From the NCBI GenBank assembly GCA_963813025.1, contig CAWEXO010000014.1:256001-320000 (forward strand): a stretch of 64,000 nt of DNA, read 5' to 3'. Within the stretch, counting starts at the first letter, position 1. Each line of letters begins with the position of its first letter. Below, in pieces: positions 27,326 through 63,586 of the stretch. The DNA is from an uncultured Verrucomicrobiae bacterium. GTDB taxonomy: Bacteria > Verrucomicrobiota > Verrucomicrobiia > Chthoniobacterales > JAFAMB01. The notes under the pieces are model-generated. The model saw only the letters and a list, made by a program, of their open reading frames with translations, did no database searches and had not been told where the DNA came from. A program made the position numbers and the translations under genes.

Positions 27326-27439
27326 GGGAGTCGCAGGAGTTCACGAGTCCAGGAGTCGCCGGAGTTCAGGAGTCCAGGAGTTGCAGGAGTCCGGGGATTT
27401 CGACAGCGCCCATCAGCATCAGTCGTCGGTCATCGGTCA
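27326..27439 (+). repeat. Composite short tandem repeat element (GGAGTY(G)CA)n - GGATTT - (GGTCATC)-like
   Basis: About 8 degenerate GGAGT-containing units followed by gtcgtcggtcatcggtca. Confidence 0.72.
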
Positions 27440-31865: not shown

Positions 31866-32037
31866 GCGTCGTGGAGTGCGCGCGACTTGTCGCCGCTCTG
31901 AGATCGGGCGGAGCGCGACTGCCAAGGATGCGGGTCTTCTCGACAGGGACTCCGCATTTTATTGGTTCGACTCGCGGCAGGGGCCGCGCGCCGCGCGGAT
32001 CCTGGAGCGGCGACAAGTCGCGCGCACTCCACGACGC
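31866..32037. repeat. REP/REPIN-like element, family C, intact copy
   Basis: Perfect 32-bp inverted arms GCGTCGTGGAGTGCGCGCGACTTGTCGCCGCT / AGCGGCGACAAGTCGCGCGCACTCCACGACGC. Confidence 0.88.
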
Positions 32038-34876: not shown

Positions 34877-35089
34877 CGAGTAGCGGGTGCCGAGTAGCGC
34901 GGACGGCCTCGTCCGTACATTCGTCCAACGCCCTATGCATGCGCGACGTCGGTGAACTCCAATAACCTGGCTTGGTTTGGACGTCGGACAAACGGGCTGC
35001 CTCGCGACCTGCCAAGGCCCGGTCGCCAGAGTACGGACGAGGCCGTCCGCGCTACTCGGGACCCGCTACTCGGGACTCGGGACTCGCTA
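34871..35089. repeat. REP pair, family B (GTAGCGCGGACGGCCTCGTCCGTAC), between convergent genes
   Basis: 25-bp unit at 34894-34918 with an exact inverted copy at 35031-35055, flanked by short GAGTAGC/GCTACTC-type repeats. Confidence 0.88.
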
Positions 35090-36814: not shown

Positions 36815-36893
36815 AGGAGTTCAGGGAAGTTCAGGGAAGTTCAAGGGAGTTCGAGGAGTTGCAGGAGTCCGGAAGTTGCGGGAGTTGCAGGAG
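36815..36893 (+). repeat. Degenerate (GGAGTTCA/GGAAGTTCAG/GGAGTTGCA)n tandem repeat
   Basis: About 8 units read directly. Confidence 0.7.
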
Positions 36894-36936: not shown

Positions 36937-39015
36937 TCATTGCACCAGCACGACCACGGAGCGGCTGTCTACTTCGTAGGTGGGACCCGCTGCCGGTAAA
37001 TCATCGCTCGGGCCCAGAATCTCTCGAGGGGATGGTTGAGCGGTGTCAATGACGCGAAACCAAGGACGCGAAAGCCCGTCGCAGATCGTGAAAACGCGCG
37101 GTTCGGCGCTGGCATTCGCCATGACATAGAGATCGTTGTCGTTGAGTCGCTCGCCCTTGAGATAATAAGCGAACACTTGTGAGCGATAGGAAAAATCGAC
37201 GGCCGAACTCGTGCCGCGCCATTTGATATCGTCCCGCCAGAAGCCGCTTCGAGAGAGGCTGGGATGCGCTTTTCGAAAGCTAATCATGAGTTTAACAAAT
37301 CGGAAAAAGGACTGGTTCTGTTGCAATCGGTCCCAGTTCAACCAAGTGGTTTCGTTATCCTGATTATACGGATTATTGTTACCGGACTGGGTGTGGAGAA
37401 ACTCGTCACCGGCGGAAAACATCGGTATGCCGTTGGCGAGGAGCAGCAGGCAAAATAAATTCCTTGCTTGCCTCTCCCGCAGCATTCGAACTTCTGCGGG
37501 GGCTCCGTCGTCGCCTTCCCAACCGCAATTCCAGCTGAAGTTCTCGACGGTCCCGTCCGCGTTGTTGTGACCGTTCGCAAGATTGTGGCGGTCATTAAAG
37601 GAGACCAGGTCATACAGCGTGAAACCGTCGTGCGAGATGACATAGTTAATGCTGTAGAAAGGGCGCCGCGCTTCTTCCAGACGGTCCGGAAACAGATCGT
37701 CACTCCCATAGAGTCGCCGCATGACTGCGCCGACCATCCCGGCATCGCCACGAACAAATCGTCGAACGTCATCCCGAAATTGGCCATTCCACTGATGCCA
37801 GAACATACCTGGGAACGCGGTTCCGAGCTGGTAGGCCCCGCCGGCGTCCCATGGTTCGGCGATCAGCCGGACCTGGCTGAGGACAGGGTCTGTCCGGATG
37901 GCAGAAAGGAGAGGCGGATCTATCAGGTCGATTGAACCGTCGGAGGAGCGGGTCAGAATGGAAGCCAGATCAAACCGAAAACCGTCTACCCGCATTTCCT
38001 GCACCCAATACCGAAGACTCTCGAGGACAAGACTGCGGATGCCAGGATCGCTGATATTCAGCGTGTTACCGGTTCCGGAGAAATCAGCGTAGGGCCGAGC
38101 CTGATCGGTGGACATCAGGTAAAAACTCGCGTTGTCGATCCCTTTAAAAGAATAGGTCGGACCCGTGTGGTCAGCCTCGGCGGTGTGATTGTAGACAACG
38201 TCCAGGATGATTTCGATTCCCGCGGCGTGCAAAGCGTCCACCATCTGCTTGAATTCTTTGACTGGATCGCCGCGTGCTGAAGAATATTCGAGGTGGGGTG
38301 CGAAGAAGTTGAGCGTCATGTAGCCCCAGTAATTTCCCTCCTGAGGGTCAAATTGCTGGACCGGCATCAGTTCAACAATCGTGACCCCGAGATCCCGCAG
38401 ATAAGGGATTTTTTCGATAATTCCAAGAAAAGTGCCGCGGCAGTCAGGGTTTACTCTGCTGGTGGGGCTGACGGTAAACCCTTTGACATGGAGTTCATAG
38501 ATAATCGCGTCCGAAAAATGGCGGGGAGCATGGCTGTTTGACCAGGCAAAATCCGGAATTTGCGAGCTGAAAACACCCAGGGGAGCGCGTCCGGCGTTAC
38601 TCCCGCTTTTCTGCGCTGATGCTCGATTGAAATCAGGTGGAAAAAAAACTTCTTTCGCAAACGGATCCAAAAGGATTTTCGATCGATCGAATGCGTGCCA
38701 CTGATTCGGACCGCGCGGGGCGGGACCGTCTACCCTATATGCGTAATAGCAGCAGCCCGCCAGCTCCGCAGCTTTCAAGCGGCAATGCCAGACTCTCTTC
38801 GTTTTGTTGCTGAGCGGTTTTAGCTCGATCTCGACTCGCGGTTTTGTCACATCAGCCTTGCCATAGAGCAGGAGTGTGACAGCGCGAGCGTTCTGGGAGT
38901 ACAAGGCAAAGTTGTAGGCCTGTTCCTCCGGAATGTAACAGACGCCGAGCGGCCCCGGCGAGCCTTCAAATGTGGGCCAGGAAACTGGTTTGGGTGGCCA
39001 GACCGAGTCGCTCAT
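36937..39015 (-). CDS. glgX: Glycogen debranching enzyme / isoamylase (GH13)
   Basis: Motifs IIYELHVKGFT, NYWGY, LDVVYNHTAE, VDGFRFDLA, LIAEPWD, HDGFTLYD and GNNNPYNQDN. Confidence 0.93.
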   Translation of the reverse strand: MSDSVWPPKPVSWPTFEGSPGPLGVCYIPEEQAYNFALYSQNARAVTLLLYGKADVTKPRVEIELKPLSNKTKRVWHCRLKAAELAGCCYYAYRVDGPAPRGPNQWHAFDRSKILLDPFAKEVFFPPDFNRASAQKSGSNAGRAPLGVFSSQIPDFAWSNSHAPRHFSDAIIYELHVKGFTVSPTSRVNPDCRGTFLGIIEKIPYLRDLGVTIVELMPVQQFDPQEGNYWGYMTLNFFAPHLEYSSARGDPVKEFKQMVDALHAAGIEIILDVVYNHTAEADHTGPTYSFKGIDNASFYLMSTDQARPYADFSGTGNTLNISDPGIRSLVLESLRYWVQEMRVDGFRFDLASILTRSSDGSIDLIDPPLLSAIRTDPVLSQVRLIAEPWDAGGAYQLGTAFPGMFWHQWNGQFRDDVRRFVRGDAGMVGAVMRRLYGSDDLFPDRLEEARRPFYSINYVISHDGFTLYDLVSFNDRHNLANGHNNADGTVENFSWNCGWEGDDGAPAEVRMLRERQARNLFCLLLLANGIPMFSAGDEFLHTQSGNNNPYNQDNETTWLNWDRLQQNQSFFRFVKLMISFRKAHPSLSRSGFWRDDIKWRGTSSAVDFSYRSQVFAYYLKGERLNDNDLYVMANASAEPRVFTICDGLSRPWFRVIDTAQPSPREILGPSDDLPAAGPTYEVDSRSVVVLVQ

Positions 39016-39120
39016 CGAGATGGAGATTTAACGTTCGAAAGAGAAGGTTCAAGTTTGGAATGTTGCGGGAGCGGCTGGTAACACCTTTGACCTGAACGAA
39101 TGGCAGTTCGAGCGGGACAT

Positions 39121-39320
39121 CGTGGAGTGCGTGCGACTTGTCGTCGCTTTGGAACCGCGCGAAGCGCGGCTACCAAAGAAAAGTGTGCCTTTCGCCAGGA
39201 AATTTCTCTACTTTGTGGTTCGGTCCTCGGCGTGGCCGCGCGCCCTCCTTCGCTGTCGCGGACTCGACGTCCAGCGGGCGAGCCGCGCGTTCCAAAGCGT
39301 GCGACAAGTCGCACGCACTC
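39121..39320. repeat. REP/REPIN-like element, family C, right arm interrupted by the group II intron
   Basis: Left arm CGTGGAGTGCGTGCGACTTGTCGTCGCTTTGGAA. The right arm ...TTCCAAAGCGTGCGACAAGTCGCACGCACTC resumes as CA at 41227. Confidence 0.85.
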
Positions 39321-41226
39321 GTGCGCCTGGGAGGGCGCACCAACAGTGGGGTGGAAGTCCCCATCGGACAGAAGCACTGGCTGTCCGTAGTCGAAGGTAA
39401 CTGCGTCGTCGAGAGGCGGGGTGGAGAGCAACCGGAGGCGAATGACCAGTCCATAACTAAAACAATGGTGAACTCGATTCGGCCTAATGCATTGGCGAGC
39501 CTGCGAGTGAAAGGCGAAGCCCAGAACGGAAAGCTGCCCGGAAAGGGAAAACGGCAACACAGCGACCGGCTCTAGGACGAGACAGTGAGCGTGGAGAACG
39601 GAGTGCATGGGGTGGGTGGAGATAGAATGGTCAGAAGTTGGAGCGACAGTAACCAGGGATCACGATCCGGGAAAGGAGCGGCGTTCATGACCAGCAGAGA
39701 GTCCGAAGAACCGTGCCCGGAAGGTGACAGAGCCTTCGTAGTAGCGAAGAAGCGGGGTAACGCCCGTGGAGCCAAGGGAGGCAGGAAGGTGGAAGCGTGA
39801 AAGTCAGGACAGAGGAACACAAACCCTCGGTAGTGCCGGCAACGGCTCCACAAGGGGGAGAGATCCGTGCCCGGTGGGCCTGGGTCGAACCAGTGGTCTG
39901 GACAGAACGCATGTTGGCAACCCTGGAAACGGGGATTGAAGGAGGAAAGTGGTTTCGGTTGATTGATAAAGTCTGGAGTCCAAAGAATCTGACTCGAGCG
40001 CTGGAAAAGGTCGTGGCCAAAGGCGGCAGCCCTGGGATCGACTCCCAGAGCGTGCACCAAGTCCAAGTCCACCAAAACCAGACGATCAGGAAGTTAGAGC
40101 AGGAACTCACGAGCCAATCAATATCAGCCGCAAAGCAGTCAAACGGGTCTGGATTCCAAAGCCTGGGAGTCAAGAGAAGCGGCCGCTAGGAGTACCGGTG
40201 GTCCGGGATCGGATCGTCCAAGGAGCCCTGCTCCAAGTGATTGAGCCGATCTTTGAACGCGATTTTGCTCCGCAAAGCTATGGGTTCCGTCCGGGCAAAG
40301 GATGCAAGGACGCATTGCGCCGAGTCGAGGAGCTGCTCAGAAGCGGCTATCACTGGGTGGTCGATGCGGATTTGAAATCCTACTTTGACCCATTCCGCAA
40401 AAGGCTTTGCTGCAGTGCATCGAGGAAAAGATCGCGGACGGGAGGGTGTTGGGACTCGTGGAACAGATGCTCCAGGCAGGAGTCATGGACAGTGCTAAAG
40501 GATGGCAACCGACCGAGCAAGGCACACCGCAAGGGGCGGTCATCAGTCCATTGTTATCGAATATCTATCTGAATGGATTGGACTGGCAAATGGCACAAAA
40601 GAGCTTTGAAATGGTGCGCTACGCCGATGACTTCATCGTGCTGTGTCGCGAGCCAACAACAAGCCCAAAGAGCCCTCGAAGAAGTCCGTCATTGGGTGGA
40701 AGCAAACGGCCTAATCCTGCACCCGCACAAAAGCGCGACTGATCGATGCCAGTCAACCCGGAGGCTTCGACTTCCTGGGTTACCATTTTGAGCGGGACAT
40801 GAAATGGCCGCGAAAGAAAAGCATGGATAAACTGAAGGACACGATCCGGGAAAAGACCCGTCGCAGCGAGGGCCGTAGTCTGCAGGCCATCTGCGCGGAT
40901 CTCAATCGAAGCCTGCGCGGCTGGTTCGAGTACTTCAAGCACAGTAAAAGCCCTGTCTTCGGAGCCGTCGACGAATACACCCGGGGCCGACTGCGCAGTA
41001 TCCTGCGTCAACGGATGGGCAAAGAAGGACACGGTCGCGGAAGCGATCATCAACTCTGGCCCAACACCTACTTCTCCACAGTGGGCTTGTTTTCCTTTCG
41101 ACAAGCACATCGTGTGGCTTGCCGATCTTCTTAGAAGTTAACCACCAACTGGAGAGCCGGATGCGGGAGATCCGCCAGTCCGGTTCGGAGGGAGGGGCGC
41201 TGCTAATCCGGCGTCCCTACCCCTAT
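39321..41226 (+). mobile_element. Group II intron (ribozyme plus RT/maturase, no endonuclease domain)
   Basis: 5' end GTGCG, domain V GAGCCGGATGCGGGAGATCCGCCAGTCCGGTTC, domain VI GGAGGGGCGC...GCGTCCCTACCCC and 3' end AT, with an internal RT ORF. Confidence 0.93.
39797..41134 (+). CDS. ltrA: Group II intron reverse transcriptase/maturase, several frameshifts
   Basis: Across frames: GGSPGID, RVWIPK...RPLG.P..RDRIVQ, SYGFRPG, VVDADLKSYFD, GTPQGAVISPLLSNIYL, RYADDF, FDFLGY and LN..LRGW..YF. Confidence 0.88.
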
Positions 41227-41230
41227 CAAA

Positions 41231-42847
41231 TCAGCGCGTTGCCGGAGTGCGAACCACGTACGAGCGGCTGATCTTGTCGTGCCAAGCCTGTTTCTGGGGA
41301 TCGAACAAGATCCAGATGAAACCAAGGCCGAGCGGCAGAAAAGAAATCAGACTGGCTAATGCTCGGAGAGCCGAGGTGCCGGTATCACGAGTGAGCAAGC
41401 CGCCGTCATGCCGGCGGACTTCCAGGCCCAGGATAATTTCGCCTAAGGTGGCACTTCGCCATACGTACATCCCGAAACGGTACAATGCCCAGAGGATGAG
41501 CGTATAACGATTCAGGTGGACTGTGTTGAGAACGGTGTAGAGTAGAACGATATCAATGATATTGGCCAGTAACCGAGGCCAAAATTCAGCCGGGATTTCC
41601 GCCGGCGTCACCGAAGCAGCTGGCGAGGCGCCAACTGGCGGGGCCACCGGCAAGGCGAGAGATCCGGGCTGCGGCTCGCCTTGATGCGCCGAAGGTGAGG
41701 TCGTCGGAACGCCTTTTGGGCGGGTACGCTCCACCAAATAAATGGTAAACGCGCCCAGGCCGAGAAGGAACACGGCGGTGCTGGCGAGAAAACCAATGAC
41801 AGGGATGGTATAGAGAACCCAGCAAATAATAGCTCCCAGGCAGATCCAGACCAGAGGCGCGTAGTCAGGTCGCTGGAGATCAGGCTGCACTGCCGACAAG
41901 TGACCCGACGGGGTTGGGGGTGGCGTAGCAGTGGTGACAGGCTGCGTTCCTGGTGCCTCGACACTCCCTCGGCCAAGATGGGGTGCCATCTTTTTTCCGA
42001 TGACCTGAAACAGCGCGGTGTTGCCTATTGCCGAAAAGACTAAAACCGCACCAAGCACCAGAGGAATCGCGAGAATTCCGATCAAGGTCAGGAGAAGAAG
42101 AAAACAGAGAAAGGCGGCGGCGGGCACAATCGCGATCCCGGCTAAAACCGCGGCGGGCGCGCGTTCCTGAATGATCTGGCCGGTCTCCGCGACCGGTCGC
42201 GGAAGAAAAAAACCAACCGCGATACAGGAAGCAAAACTGACCAGGCAGAAAAACCAGGAAATGCCGGAAGTTAGAGACATGGGCCGAAGAAGAAGGACGG
42301 TATGAGCGAACCAGTGATGAATACCTTGCAGCATACCCGGTGAAAGGAAGTCCATCTGCATCTGGTCGCCACTGACGTGAATGCTCTCGTCTTTCCGGCC
42401 CGAGGACAGAAACGTCACGTAGTCTCCGTTGATCGTTGCGCCGGTTTCGAGGTTCACCTTTGACGCGACGCTCACGAAATCCCCGTTTATGGTTCCCCGG
42501 ATCGTGGCACTGGACCCGACCAAGACCACGTCGCCATTGACGTTGCCAGCGATCTCGGCCTGAGCCCCGATCAGCACCAGGTCACTGTTCTGAGCTTCGC
42601 CTTCTTCCAGCTTATAGTTGTGTCCGATAATTACCTGTTGGTGGTTCGAAGCGTCAGAGCGGTGAGACTTCGCTCGAGTGACGACCGCGCCGATCCAACT
42701 GGCCTGATCGTTCCAGCGATCAACGCTGACTGTGCCCAGGGTACTCGGTACGGAATGGGAGCGGCTTTCGATCGAAAACCCGCTCGTGGCGAGCGCGTTG
42801 CCGCAGAGCAATAGAATACCCAGCCCTGAGAAAAGACGGCGCTTCAT
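41231..42847 (-). CDS. Membrane protein: signal peptide, bactofilin-like beta-repeat, multi-TM region, C-terminal RDD domain
   Basis: Repeats G.V.GDVV.VG, GTINGDFV and GATINGDYV. RDD motifs FWPRLLANIID, TLG..ILGL.V and QAWHDKI....VV. Confidence 0.8.
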   Translation of the reverse strand: MKRRLFSGLGILLLCGNALATSGFSIESRSHSVPSTLGTVSVDRWNDQASWIGAVVTRAKSHRSDASNHQQVIIGHNYKLEEGEAQNSDLVLIGAQAEIAGNVNGDVVLVGSSATIRGTINGDFVSVASKVNLETGATINGDYVTFLSSGRKDESIHVSGDQMQMDFLSPGMLQGIHHWFAHTVLLLRPMSLTSGISWFFCLVSFASCIAVGFFLPRPVAETGQIIQERAPAAVLAGIAIVPAAAFLCFLLLLTLIGILAIPLVLGAVLVFSAIGNTALFQVIGKKMAPHLGRGSVEAPGTQPVTTATPPPTPSGHLSAVQPDLQRPDYAPLVWICLGAIICWVLYTIPVIGFLASTAVFLLGLGAFTIYLVERTRPKGVPTTSPSAHQGEPQPGSLALPVAPPVGASPAASVTPAEIPAEFWPRLLANIIDIVLLYTVLNTVHLNRYTLILWALYRFGMYVWRSATLGEIILGLEVRRHDGGLLTRDTGTSALRALASLISFLPLGLGFIWILFDPQKQAWHDKISRSYVVRTPATR

Positions 42848-50471: not shown

Positions 50472-50533
50472 GGTGGCGAGTTTTTAATAGCAGATCTTTG
50501 TCGAGAATAAAGGCCCTACCGCAGATGGCTCGC

Positions 50534-50643
50534 GTAGCGCGGACGGCCTCGTCCGTACTCTGGCGTGCACTCCTTGGCACCGAGCAACGCTCAATCTACC
50601 CGCGGTGTGCCGGTGGAAGTACGGACGAGGCCGTCCGCGCTAC
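50534..50643. repeat. REP pair, family B, second copy
   Basis: Identical 25-bp unit at 50534-50558 with an inverted copy at 50619-50643. Confidence 0.88.
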
Positions 50644-62398: not shown

Positions 62399-62690
62399 GT
62401 AGCGCGACGGCCGTGGGTCTCCCGGACTTCGACATTTGCCGATTCCTCGGTCCATCGACGACGCATCAGGCCCTGCGTGGGACGGTACGTAGCGCCGACG
62501 GCCTCGTCGGTACATCGGCGGAGAGATGCCCAGCACGTTGCGCAATCTGTCGATCTCGACGGCGCACGAAGCTGGGAGCGTGATATGTAACGTCGGCGCT
62601 ACGCAACGCACTCGCCTTTTGGGTCACGGGATCGAGGGAACCGCACAACGCGTTGGGCGTGCTCACAGGCGGACGGACGAGGCTGTCCGC
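62399..62690. repeat. Cluster of family B REP variants
   Basis: GTAGCGCCGACGGCCTCGTCGGTAC at 62489-62513, CGTCGGCGCTAC at 62591-62602 and further partial units. Confidence 0.75.
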
Positions 62691-62814
62691 CTTCGTGCCC
62701 GCTTCGAGGGCACTACGGCGCGACAAGTTCCGCGCTGCGCTCGATCTCTGGAGCAGACAAATTTTCGAGAACTGGACCGCCAGTTGGCGCTATTGTGTTG
62801 ATCAGGAGAACTCC

Positions 62815-63472: not shown

Positions 63473-63586
63473 GAGGAGTCAGGAGTCGGGAGTCAGGAGT
63501 AACCAGTAATCGGTAATCGGTAATCCCGCCTAACGCCTCAAGTCGCTCAAGCCGCTCAAGCCGCTCAAGCCGCTCAAGCCGCTCAA
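63473..63586 (+). repeat. Stacked short tandem repeats (GGAGTCR)n, (GGTAATC)n and (CTCAAGCCG)x5.5
   Basis: Read directly. The nonamer array is at 63537-63586. Confidence 0.85.

What the first reader, a model, noticed from the sequence alone, without database searches (positions are those of the whole stretch)
39121..41230. Group II intron that appears to home into a REP-like repeat family
Seen: the intron (GTGCG at 39321 to CCCTAT at 41226) splits the right arm of a family C repeat exactly at GCACTC^CA. The intact copy at 32006-32037 reads GCACTCCACG, and the left arm of the interrupted copy predicts the same junction. The insertion is 5 nt after the repeat's own hairpin CGTGCGAC-AA-GTCGCACG (39298-39315). 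In domain I, a stem-loop GCCT-GCGAGTGAA-AGGC (39499-39515) presents GAGTG (39505-39509), complementary to the last five exon bases CACTC, so it is a candidate EBS1. Known: inserting just after a stem-loop with a short IBS1 is the class C strategy (terminators, attC), and class C has a CGC triad in a shortened domain V. This intron has an AGC triad in a full-length domain V. Inference: a non-class-C intron may use an abundant, non-essential repeat as a multi-copy safe target. Both flanking genes are on the opposite strand, so its transcription must come from elsewhere.
Basis: partly seen in the sequence, partly recalled or inferred. Interest (0 to 1): 0.8.

Follow-up and report, generated by a model that had tools for sequence, protein, structure and literature searches.

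The report
REP-hairpin-targeting group II intron lineage
This is a decayed copy of a self-splicing bacterial retroelement whose relatives almost always land at the same distance behind small repeated DNA hairpins between genes, using a five-letter RNA guide that has been rewritten again and again to fit different hairpin families, a habit so far worked out only for a different intron class.

Summary
Confirmed and extended. The intron (39321-41226) splits a REP-like arm at GCACTC^CA. A second copy in the same genome (97.7% identical) sits at the same base of another arm; the family has 69 arms. Both protein genes are broken. GAGTG is EBS1: in 77 close relatives with 23 different 5-mers it pairs exon positions -1 to -5 in 95-99% of cases (45-61% permuted). 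No EBS2 signal was found. In 103 of 123 distinct flanks a hairpin apex lies at -13 to -15, with no T-tract and no strand link to the upstream gene. The target was a multicopy repeat in all 7 genomes tested (hand-picked; 18-442 matches). The RT falls outside class C, with an intron labelled 'Unclassified' by Miura 2022, who already noted U1/U2 introns next to predicted terminators. So hairpin targeting outside class C is partly foreshadowed; I did not find REP targeting with EBS1 retargeting in print (five searches). Exceptions exist (non-repeat hairpins, a plasmid site beside an IS91-family gene). Unexplained: the only two arms with a repaired bulge are the two occupied ones. This scan noted REP-homing introns before on other DNA (unchecked notes).

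The parts
39121..39150 (-). Left arm of the REP-like doublet (intact, unoccupied arm; reads ...GCACTC^CA on the minus strand)
39294..39320 (+). Right arm, 5' exon part (27 nt identical to the flank of the second copy; carries the extra T that repairs the family's bulge)
39297..39316 (+). Target DNA hairpin, apex at about -14.5 from the junction
   Evidence: fold -10.6 kcal/mol, z -3.2; clade-wide apex position
39316..39320 (+). IBS1 (CACTC)
   Evidence: covariation with EBS1
39321..41226 (+). Group II intron, 1906 nt, En-minus, unclassified (U1/U2-like) lineage
39375..39379 (+). Candidate alpha (CACTG in the Ib loop)
   Evidence: read by eye from the alignment; compensatory changes in several relatives; not counted
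39499..39515 (+). EBS1 stem-loop; EBS1 = GAGTG at 39505-39509
   Evidence: consensus fold; covariation
39583..39587 (+). Candidate alpha' (CAGTG), 3' of the EBS1 hairpin
   Evidence: read by eye
39615..39615 (+). Candidate EBS3 (G), pairing with exon +1 (C41227)
   Evidence: 20 of 20 Watson-Crick in close relatives, two pair types only; 7 of 9 in the wider set
39797..41134 (+). Broken RT/maturase frame (5 single-base indels against the second copy; YADD present; no En domain)
   Evidence: intact relative is 444 aa
41154..41186 (+). Domain V, 33 nt, AGC triad at 41155-41157, 5-nt loop
41190..41226 (+). Domain VI with likely branch A at 41219 and the 3' end AT
   Evidence: Rfam alignment; branch position by analogy with known introns
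41227..41230 (+). 3' exon: remainder of the repeat arm (CA); IBS3 = C41227
   Evidence: 65 of 69 arms continue with CA
36937..39015 (-). Flanking gene: isoamylase/GlgX-like glycoside hydrolase (intact)
   Evidence: Pfam PF00128, PF02922
41231..42847 (-). Flanking gene: RDD-family membrane protein; its stop codon lies 4 nt from the intron end
   Evidence: Pfam PF06271
31869..32037 (.). Intact, empty doublet of the same repeat family (reference for the junction)

Best explanation
This is a decayed member of an En-minus group II intron lineage outside class C (within Miura's 'Unclassified' set, probably U1 or U2). It picks targets as class C does, by DNA hairpin shape plus a short guide, but is tuned to REP-type extragenic palindromes rather than terminators. 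Shown by comparison: a hairpin with its apex about 14 nt before the junction, a 5-bp EBS1-IBS1 pairing, EBS3 pairing with +1, no EBS2, and EBS1 rewritten many times so that it fits the conserved unpaired end of one repeat family per intron variant (often the complement of the GTAG tag, cut as CTA|C; here CTC|C). Inferred by analogy with the E.r. IIC structure and other En-minus introns: the RNP binds the hairpin on single-stranded DNA at the replication fork, reverse-splices, and primes cDNA from a nascent strand. REP preference needs no sequence-specific REP reader. An EBS1 that matches the end of an abundant extragenic hairpin family gives tens to hundreds of harmless sites, so such variants spread and persist. 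The two copies in this genome are old insertions whose protein genes have since broken.
For: Two independent copies at the same base of different arms, flank identity ending at the arm boundary. EBS1 covariation: 22 of 24 diverse introns scored, 20 different 5-mers, 101.5 of 110 against a permutation mean of 42 and maximum of 68 in 20,000; 77 close relatives, 23 5-mers, 95-99% paired at -1 to -5 against 45-61%. The best 4-bp helix over 68 aligned ribozymes is 39505-39508 with -1 to -4 (excess 0.48); the best using only -7 to -20 is 0.08. Hairpin: 108 of 123 flanks fold at -4 kcal/mol or lower, against 35 of 110 and 6 of 68 in windows shifted 100 and 300 nt; apex at -13 to -15 in 103 of 123; TTTT in 1 of 123. 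Targets are multicopy in 7 of 7 genomes tested: 69, 405, 442, 60, 18, 53 and 296 matches, reversed-pattern controls 0 in the six tool searches. Recent bursts: 99.9-100% and 99.8-100% identical copies with open frames in G001 and G002. Tree: class C clade (SH-aLRT 98) excludes this clade (94), which holds the pBN3 intron labelled Unclassified.
Against: No mobility or splicing data. The seven genomes were picked because their flanks looked repeat-like, so the REP fraction of the whole clade is not measured. Some copies sit behind non-repeat hairpins (L033, L265), directly behind another intron copy (L167, L272, pBN3), or at a site beside an IS91-family/integrase pair (pBN3). L046 and L006 pair poorly. 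47 of 128 junctions have no GTAG/GTAA/GGAG-type end. In this genome only 58 of 146 sites fitting a loose hairpin-plus-CACTC|C rule belong to the family, so two hits in the family would not be surprising alone. Rows are related, so permutation values overstate significance. No g6 reference was in the tree, and a sister relationship with class C is not rejected (p-AU 0.116). The shared extra T in both occupied arms is not explained.
Confidence: 0.8

Rival explanations
1. Ordinary class C (or g6) terminator targeting: the REP arms simply act as I-shaped terminators and the intron is a IIC variant.
For: Domain I has IIC-like topology and no EBS2. The best PDB matches are IIC proteins. Toor 2006 says IIC introns lie after terminators 'or other inverted repeats'. 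Miura 2022 places U1/U2 near C and g6 and next to predicted terminators. The AU test does not reject a C-plus-clade grouping.
Against: AGC triad, 33-nt domain V with 5-nt loop, 5-bp IBS1, and no 11-nt AGGAA bulge (against the definitions). The class C clade excludes it. No T-tract (1 of 123). Orientation to the upstream ORF is 13 same and 12 opposite.
Confidence: 0.08
2. The intron depends on the REP's own Y1 (HUH) transposase: the nuclease nicks or holds the opposite strand, exposing single-stranded DNA or supplying the primer, so REP targeting is mechanistic and not only adaptive.
For: Many junctions fall inside the complement of the GTAG tag (35 CTA|, 16 shifted by one, 17 TTA| of 128), on the strand that TnpA-REP does not bind (passages of PMC8266576). 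In G001 a Y1 gene is flanked on both sides by doublets of the target repeat.
Against: Only 1 of the 22 Y1 loci examined in six genomes was flanked on both sides by the tested target repeat, and 0 of 3 in this genome (80% complete). That protein scores as IS200-like (56.5 bits, cut-off 55), not REP_Tyr_transpos (20.2, cut-off 80). Insertions occur behind non-REP hairpins.
Confidence: 0.07
3. The copies in this genome spread by recombination or gene conversion between repeat arms, or as cargo of a moving REP doublet, carrying the 27-nt flank along.
For: Both occupied arms share an extra T found in none of the other 67 arms in the AAAGCG context.
Against: Left arms, spacers and everything beyond +4 differ between the two loci. 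In G001 and G002 near-identical introns sit in different sequence variants of the repeat. EBS1 tracks the target across the clade, which recombination would not produce.
Confidence: 0.05

Closest known systems
Class C (IIC) group II introns: B.h.I1 (Toor 2006, PMC1702495), E.r. IIC RNP (Chung 2022, PMC10190682), IIC-attC introns
   Same: En-minus protein; no EBS2; a DNA stem-loop in place of IBS2; short EBS1 plus EBS3; multi-site spread in intergenic DNA; similar domain I layout around the EBS1 hairpin (compared with reference L085).
   Different: RT outside the class C clade; AGC instead of CGC; 33-nt domain V with 5-nt loop; 5-bp instead of 3-4-bp IBS1; targets are short-stem REP-type palindromes without T-tract, in either orientation to genes; EBS1 is hypervariable between otherwise about 84%-identical ribozymes.
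'Unclassified' U1/U2 IEP types of Miura et al. 2022 (PMC8919778)
   Same: The pBN3 intron, labelled Unclassified in their Table S3, lies inside this clade (50% RT identity). They report g6/U1/U2 introns right after predicted rho-independent terminators, L- or I-shaped.
   Different: In the sections read they give no EBS analysis, no spacing rule and no mention of repeats or palindromes (0 hits for both words). Whether the clade is U1 or U2 could not be read (figure file too large).
Class E and F (IIE/IIF) introns (Nagy 2013, PMC3753933; Toro 2013, PMC3552965)
   Same: AGC triad, 5-nt domain V loop, alpha' apparently in a stem-loop of domain Id, En-minus.
   Different: E and F have an apparent EBS2-IBS2 and home to sequence-defined sites. 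References for E, F-g2, F-g3 and G-g1 fall outside this clade.
REP-targeting insertion sequences (ISPpu9, ISPpu10, ISPa11, ISPsy8, IS1397; Tobes and Pareja 2006, PMC1525189)
   Same: Use of REPs as multi-copy, non-essential landing sites. The same table lists 2 of 9 P. putida group II intron copies at REPs.
   Different: Those are DNA transposons. Here the guide is a ribozyme loop plus hairpin shape, and occupancy is near-complete within a variant (14 of 14, 9 of 10).

Membership tests
Group II intron (RT-encoding) | GUGYG 5' end, AY 3' end, domains V and VI | tested here: met
Group II intron (RT-encoding) | RT/maturase frame in domain IV | tested here: met
   TIGR04416 334 bits (cut-off 300) and GIIM on the second copy; broken in the window copy
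Class C (IIC) | CGC triad and distal domain V stem 2 bp shorter | tested here: not met
   AGC, 33 nt, 5-nt loop; definition from PMC1702495
Class C (IIC) | RT inside the class C clade | tested here: not met
   C clade of 7 rows (98) excludes this clade (94); sister status not rejected, p-AU 0.116; only 2 published C references, both from plasmids, plus 5 rows typed by CGC
Class C (IIC) | 11-nt bulge with AGGAA in domain Ic | tested here: not met
   6-nt AGAGCA bulge in the consensus fold
Class C (IIC) | No EBS2; stem-loop at the IBS2 position | tested here: met
Class C (IIC) | IBS1-EBS1 of 3-4 bp | tested here: not met
   5 positions pair in 95-99%, a sixth in 51% against 34%; Chung 2022 describes a discontinuous fifth pair in E.r.
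Class C (IIC) | Insertion after intrinsic terminators (T-tract, same strand as the upstream gene) or attC | tested here: not met
   TTTT in 1 of 123; 13 same, 12 opposite among 25 of 32 loci with an ORF call; no terminator-like site at the target
g6 variety | RT clade g6 with IIC-like RNA | not testable with these tools
   no g6 reference could be fetched; the in-clade pBN3 intron is labelled Unclassified, not g6, in Miura Table S3
Class E / F | 5-nt domain V loop and AGC triad | tested here: met
Class E / F | RT inside the E or F (g2-g5) clade; apparent EBS2-IBS2 | tested here: not met
   one E and two F references outside the clade; no EBS2 signal; g4 and g5 references not available
Miura 'Unclassified' U1/U2 | Clusters with introns labelled Unclassified, about 400-500 aa, En-minus | tested here: met
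   pBN3 intron inside the clade; 444 aa in L007; U1 versus U2 not resolved
REP / REPIN (target) | 20-40 bp imperfect palindrome, high copy, extragenic, in inverted doublets | tested here: met
   69 arms, 20 doublets mostly 146-157 nt, 6 of 69 inside long ORFs against 66% of the genome
REP / REPIN (target) | GT[AG]G (or CGTC) tag at the foot of the hairpin | tested here: not met
   the conserved end here is TGGAG; only 17 of 69 arms give GTGG. Many relatives' targets do carry GTAG
REP / REPIN (target) | Cognate Y1 transposase (RAYT) gene flanked by the repeat | tested here: inconclusive
   0 of 3 Y1 genes in this 80%-complete genome; met once in G001 by an IS200-like Y1 gene
Group II intron (RT-encoding) | Self-splicing and retrohoming activity | not testable with these tools
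   needs bench work

The most novel reading that the evidence does not exclude
The clade is a dedicated parasite of REP/Y1-transposase systems and a fourth target specificity beside homing sites, terminators and attC. It inserts on the strand that the REP nuclease ignores, destroys the tag that the nuclease needs (so the new copy is shielded from cutting), switches repeat family by rewriting five EBS1 bases, and may use the Y1 nick on the opposite strand as its primer. The repaired bulge in both occupied arms would then mark arms that the nuclease can no longer process.
Probability: 0.15. Interest if true: 0.85.

Novelty: new variant of a known kind. Interest (0 to 1): 0.62.

Why it matters
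Zimmerly and Semper 2015 list three target specificities for bacterial group II introns and credit structure-based targeting to class C alone. A separate, widespread lineage (Verrucomicrobiota, Acidobacteriota, Planctomycetota, Myxococcota, Pseudomonadota) that reads a hairpin plus five bases, with AGC-type ribozyme chemistry, bears on whether hairpin recognition is ancestral, a question Toor 2006 left open. It also gives a natural library of more than 20 EBS1/target pairs on a nearly constant ribozyme, which makes the spacing rule and retargeting directly testable and may suit multi-copy integration tools. It shows REPs shaping the evolution of a retroelement guide.

Tried and rejected
Rfam D1-D4 models gave no class call (best group-II-D1D4-4, 21 bits against 49). 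EBS2: no covarying helix with exon -7 to -20. Internal plus-strand promoter: none in a consensus scan of 38900-41400 (weak test). Cognate RAYT in this genome: three Y1 genes, each flanked by other repeats. This repeat family in relatives: the 27-nt occupied-arm pattern was not found in 42 other family genomes; this substitution-only search cannot see the one-base-shorter consensus, so it says nothing about the family itself. Sequencing runs: no RNA holder listed; six DNA runs with small shares. Laying four of them showed only related introns in contigs and no joint across the intron, so neither the indels nor an empty site could be checked. 'Perfect stem required': rejected as a general rule because occupied sites in G001 carry the ordinary mismatched stem and many targets have 5-6 bp stems. 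Thumb residues that bind the DNA stem in E.r. (R349, R353, K358) align with R, R, K in L007, but S346 and R347 do not; the motif is common to domain X, so it is not used as evidence. The careful tree did not finish; quick and FastTree trees were used. A g6 reference and four further class references were not in the plasmid collection.

Full report
Observation. The window lies at G000:C14:256001-320000 of a 4.4-Mb, 56% GC, 80%-complete genome. The labels of its nearest intron relatives suggest a soil verrucomicrobium (inference). The intron runs from GTGCG at 39321 to CCCTAT at 41226, with Rfam Intron_gpII at 41152-41226. It interrupts the right arm of a repeat doublet at GCACTC|CAAA. The candidate loop GAGTG (39505-39509) and the AGC triad are as described. 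The hairpin spans 39297-39316, folds at -10.6 kcal/mol (z -3.2) and ends 4 nt before the intron. Domain V is 33 nt with a 5-nt loop. The neighbours are an isoamylase-like gene and an RDD-family gene, both on the minus strand.

Second copy and decay. BLAST of the intron finds exactly one other copy, C12:99235-97333, 97.7% identical. It follows the same 27 nt of a different arm and is followed by CAAA; the sequences diverge outside these limits, so the insertions are independent. The copies differ by 38 substitutions and 5 single-base indels. All indels lie in the RT frame and break it in the window copy. The second copy is open through the RT domain and has one stop before domain X. Neither encodes a complete protein as assembled; assembly error cannot be excluded. 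The second copy has same-strand ORFs upstream, so it could be transcribed by read-through.

The repeat. A census finds 69 arms; 65 continue with CA and 2 with the intron. 20 inverted doublets occur, mostly 146-157 nt across. 6 of 69 arms lie in long ORFs, against 66% of the genome. The family is REP-like in size, structure and placement, but its conserved end is TGGAG rather than the canonical GT[AG]G (Quentin 2018 passages), and none of the three Y1 genes in the assembly is flanked by it. One oddity: 52 of 69 arms read AAAGCGG with a bulged stem, and the only two that read AAAGCGTG, with the bulge repaired, are the two occupied arms. Possible causes are a preference for a stable stem, template-switch correction during integration, flank co-conversion, or survival in arms that a Y1 nuclease cannot process (in E. 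coli, repairing the REP bulge abolishes TnpA-REP activity; passages of PMC8266576). With n = 2 this stays open.

EBS1 is real. 80 related loci came from the species-level genome collection (best 80 of 139). Aligning domains I-III shows the same hairpin in the full-length ribozymes, with a variable loop. For 22 of 24 diverse introns where the loop could be parsed (20 different 5-mers), pairing with exon -1 to -5 scored 101.5 of 110, against a mean of 42 and a maximum of 68 in 20,000 permutations; L046 and L006 pair poorly. It gave 173 matches, 168 with enough flank and 128 distinct flanks. In the 77 with a parsable loop (23 different 5-mers), positions -1 to -5 pair in 95-99% of cases against 45-61% permuted, -6 in 51% against 34%, and -7 at background; EBS3 and +1 agree in 20 of 20, but only two pair types occur. 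A scan of every ribozyme column against exon -1 to -20 in 68 sequences ranks this helix first (excess 0.48) and finds nothing for -7 to -20 (0.08), so there is no EBS2. EBS1 columns carry 1.2-1.8 bits against 0.40 on average, at a median identity of 84%. The rows are related, so these are descriptive, not independent, statistics.

The hairpin rule. After dropping 2 tandem insertions and 3 short flanks, 108 of 123 flanks fold at -4 kcal/mol or lower, against 35 of 110 and 6 of 68 for windows shifted by 100 and 300 nt. The apex lies at -13 to -15 in 103 of 123, while the stem end varies (mostly 3-7 nt from the junction). TTTT occurs in 1 of 123. Upstream ORFs are same-strand in 13 and opposite in 12 of the 25 loci (of 32) with a crude ORF call. 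These are not oriented L-shaped terminators.

The hairpins are repeats. I tested seven genomes, chosen by eye, not at random. Target patterns gave 69 arms here, 405 matches in G001, 442 in G002, 60 in G004, 18 in G006 (some counted on both strands), 53 in G295 and 296 in G258, with 0 in the reversed-pattern controls of the six tool searches. In G001, 14 of 14 fetched copies sit at the end of the repeat (13 in the main family, 1 in a sister family); equal-length full copies are 99.9-100% identical. In G002, 9 of 10 do. Of 128 junctions, 35 end CTA|, 16 are shifted by one, 17 end TTA| and 11 CTC|, that is, inside or at the complement of a GTAG-, GTAA- or GGAG-type tag; 47 belong to other palindrome types and 2 are tandem insertions. 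In G001 one Y1 gene is flanked on both sides by doublets of the target repeat; it scores as IS200-like, and it is the only such case among 22 Y1 loci examined. Against a strict REP rule: L033 and L265 follow non-repeat hairpins, and the pBN3 copies sit behind a hairpin beside an IS91-family/integrase pair, one of them in tandem. In this genome 58 of 146 sites fitting a loose rule are family arms. Shape plus five bases is therefore enough to explain the data, and REP preference follows from which EBS1 variants succeed.

Class. With references taken from published tables (Miura Table S3, Toro Table S2), the RT falls in a clade (support 90-94) that excludes classes B, C, D, E, F-g2, F-g3 and G-g1 and includes the pBN3 intron labelled Unclassified (quick and FastTree methods, mostly one reference per class, no g6). 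A class C group of 7 rows has support 98; a sister relationship with it is not rejected (p-AU 0.116). By Toor 2006's definitions (passages) the ribozyme fails the CGC, short-stem, AGGAA-bulge and 3-4-bp tests, but shares the missing EBS2 and the stem-loop. It has the 5-nt domain V loop that Nagy 2013 assigns to IIE/IIF (part 1 and passages). It works like class C without being a member.

Mechanism. Shown here by comparison: boundaries, EBS1, the absence of EBS2, hairpin spacing, multicopy targets and recent bursts. Inferred from Chung 2022 (passages) and Zimmerly and Semper 2015 (passages): shape recognition of the DNA stem by thumb/DBD and domain Id, reverse splicing into single-stranded DNA, and fork-derived priming. 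Speculative: any role of the Y1 nuclease.

What is in print. Miura 2022 (sections 7 and 9, passages, rows of Table S3) reports g6, U1 and U2 introns just after predicted terminators, which foreshadows non-C hairpin targeting; its figure supplement could not be read and may bear on U1 versus U2. Tobes and Pareja 2006 (one table passage) list 2 of 9 P. putida intron copies at REPs. Sonbol and Siam 2021 (passages) speculate on hairpins before IIB introns. Di Nocera 2013 has no mention of introns. Five full-text searches returned no paper describing a REP-targeting lineage or EBS1 retargeting among REP families; the library lacks most subscription papers. This scan's earlier notes describe REP-homing introns in other genomes, assigned to several classes. 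My reading was recorded before I saw them, I did not test them, and they are not counted as support.

Verdict. A real feature, correctly read, and the visible part of a clade-wide pattern. New variant of a known kind; interest 0.62.

Noticed in passing
G000:C12:99235-97333 (L001 7236-5334): Second copy of the intron at the same base of another arm; one stop before domain X; upstream on the same strand lies a gene pair that looks like a PIN toxin-antitoxin module (by eye).
   Followed up: partly
window 39294-39320 and G000:C12:99236-99262: The only two arms of 69 with the extra T that repairs the stem bulge are the two intron-bearing arms.
   Followed up: partly
window 34893-35055, 50533-50643, 62488-62695; L094, L095: A second repeat family (GTAG-tagged, GTAGCGC...GACGGCCTCGTC type) occurs in the window and surrounds two Y1 genes of the genome; L094 scores 76 bits against a cut-off of 80 for REP_Tyr_transpos, so it is the likely RAYT of that family.
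   Followed up: partly
L093 (G000:C11:984269-987493): A third Y1 gene is flanked by a different palindrome (ACCGGCATCCTGCCGGT type).
   Followed up: no
G000:C8:338547-338620 and C13:506741-506857: Orphan domain V/VI remnant of an unrelated group II intron, and a 39-codon RT fragment, both among transposase or recombinase debris.
   Followed up: partly
L167, L272, L285 (pBN3), L029: Tandem insertions: in L167, L272 and pBN3 a copy sits directly behind the 3' end of another copy (domain VI hairpin as 5' flank, EBS1 not matching); L029 has a second 5' end 80 nt after the first intron in another repeat arm.
   Followed up: no
L115, L182, L185, L206, L223, L229, L231, L246, L260: A second target type: short GCCCCGAAGGGGC-like hairpins, in L185 followed by AGCCCAGGG, matched by pyrimidine-rich EBS1 variants (TTCTT, TCCTT, CCCTG).
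   Followed up: no
L248, L262, L282 (G258): EBS1 AGATG (read in L282): all three fetched copies occupy the CATCT variant of a repeat whose commoner listed variant ends AATCT, as expected if EBS1 selects among variants.
   Followed up: partly
L105 (G001:C40:161093-164425): A 156-aa IS200-like Y1 gene flanked on both sides by doublets of the repeat that the local intron targets, a REPtron-like layout with a protein that does not score as RAYT.
   Followed up: partly
L018, L019, L035, L040, L049: Internally deleted or interrupted intron copies that keep the 5' end at the repeat.
   Followed up: no
window 63537-63586 and 27342-27394, 36845-36885: Short tandem repeats (9-nt unit CTCAAGCCG; AGGAGTCC-type units) between genes.
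   Followed up: no
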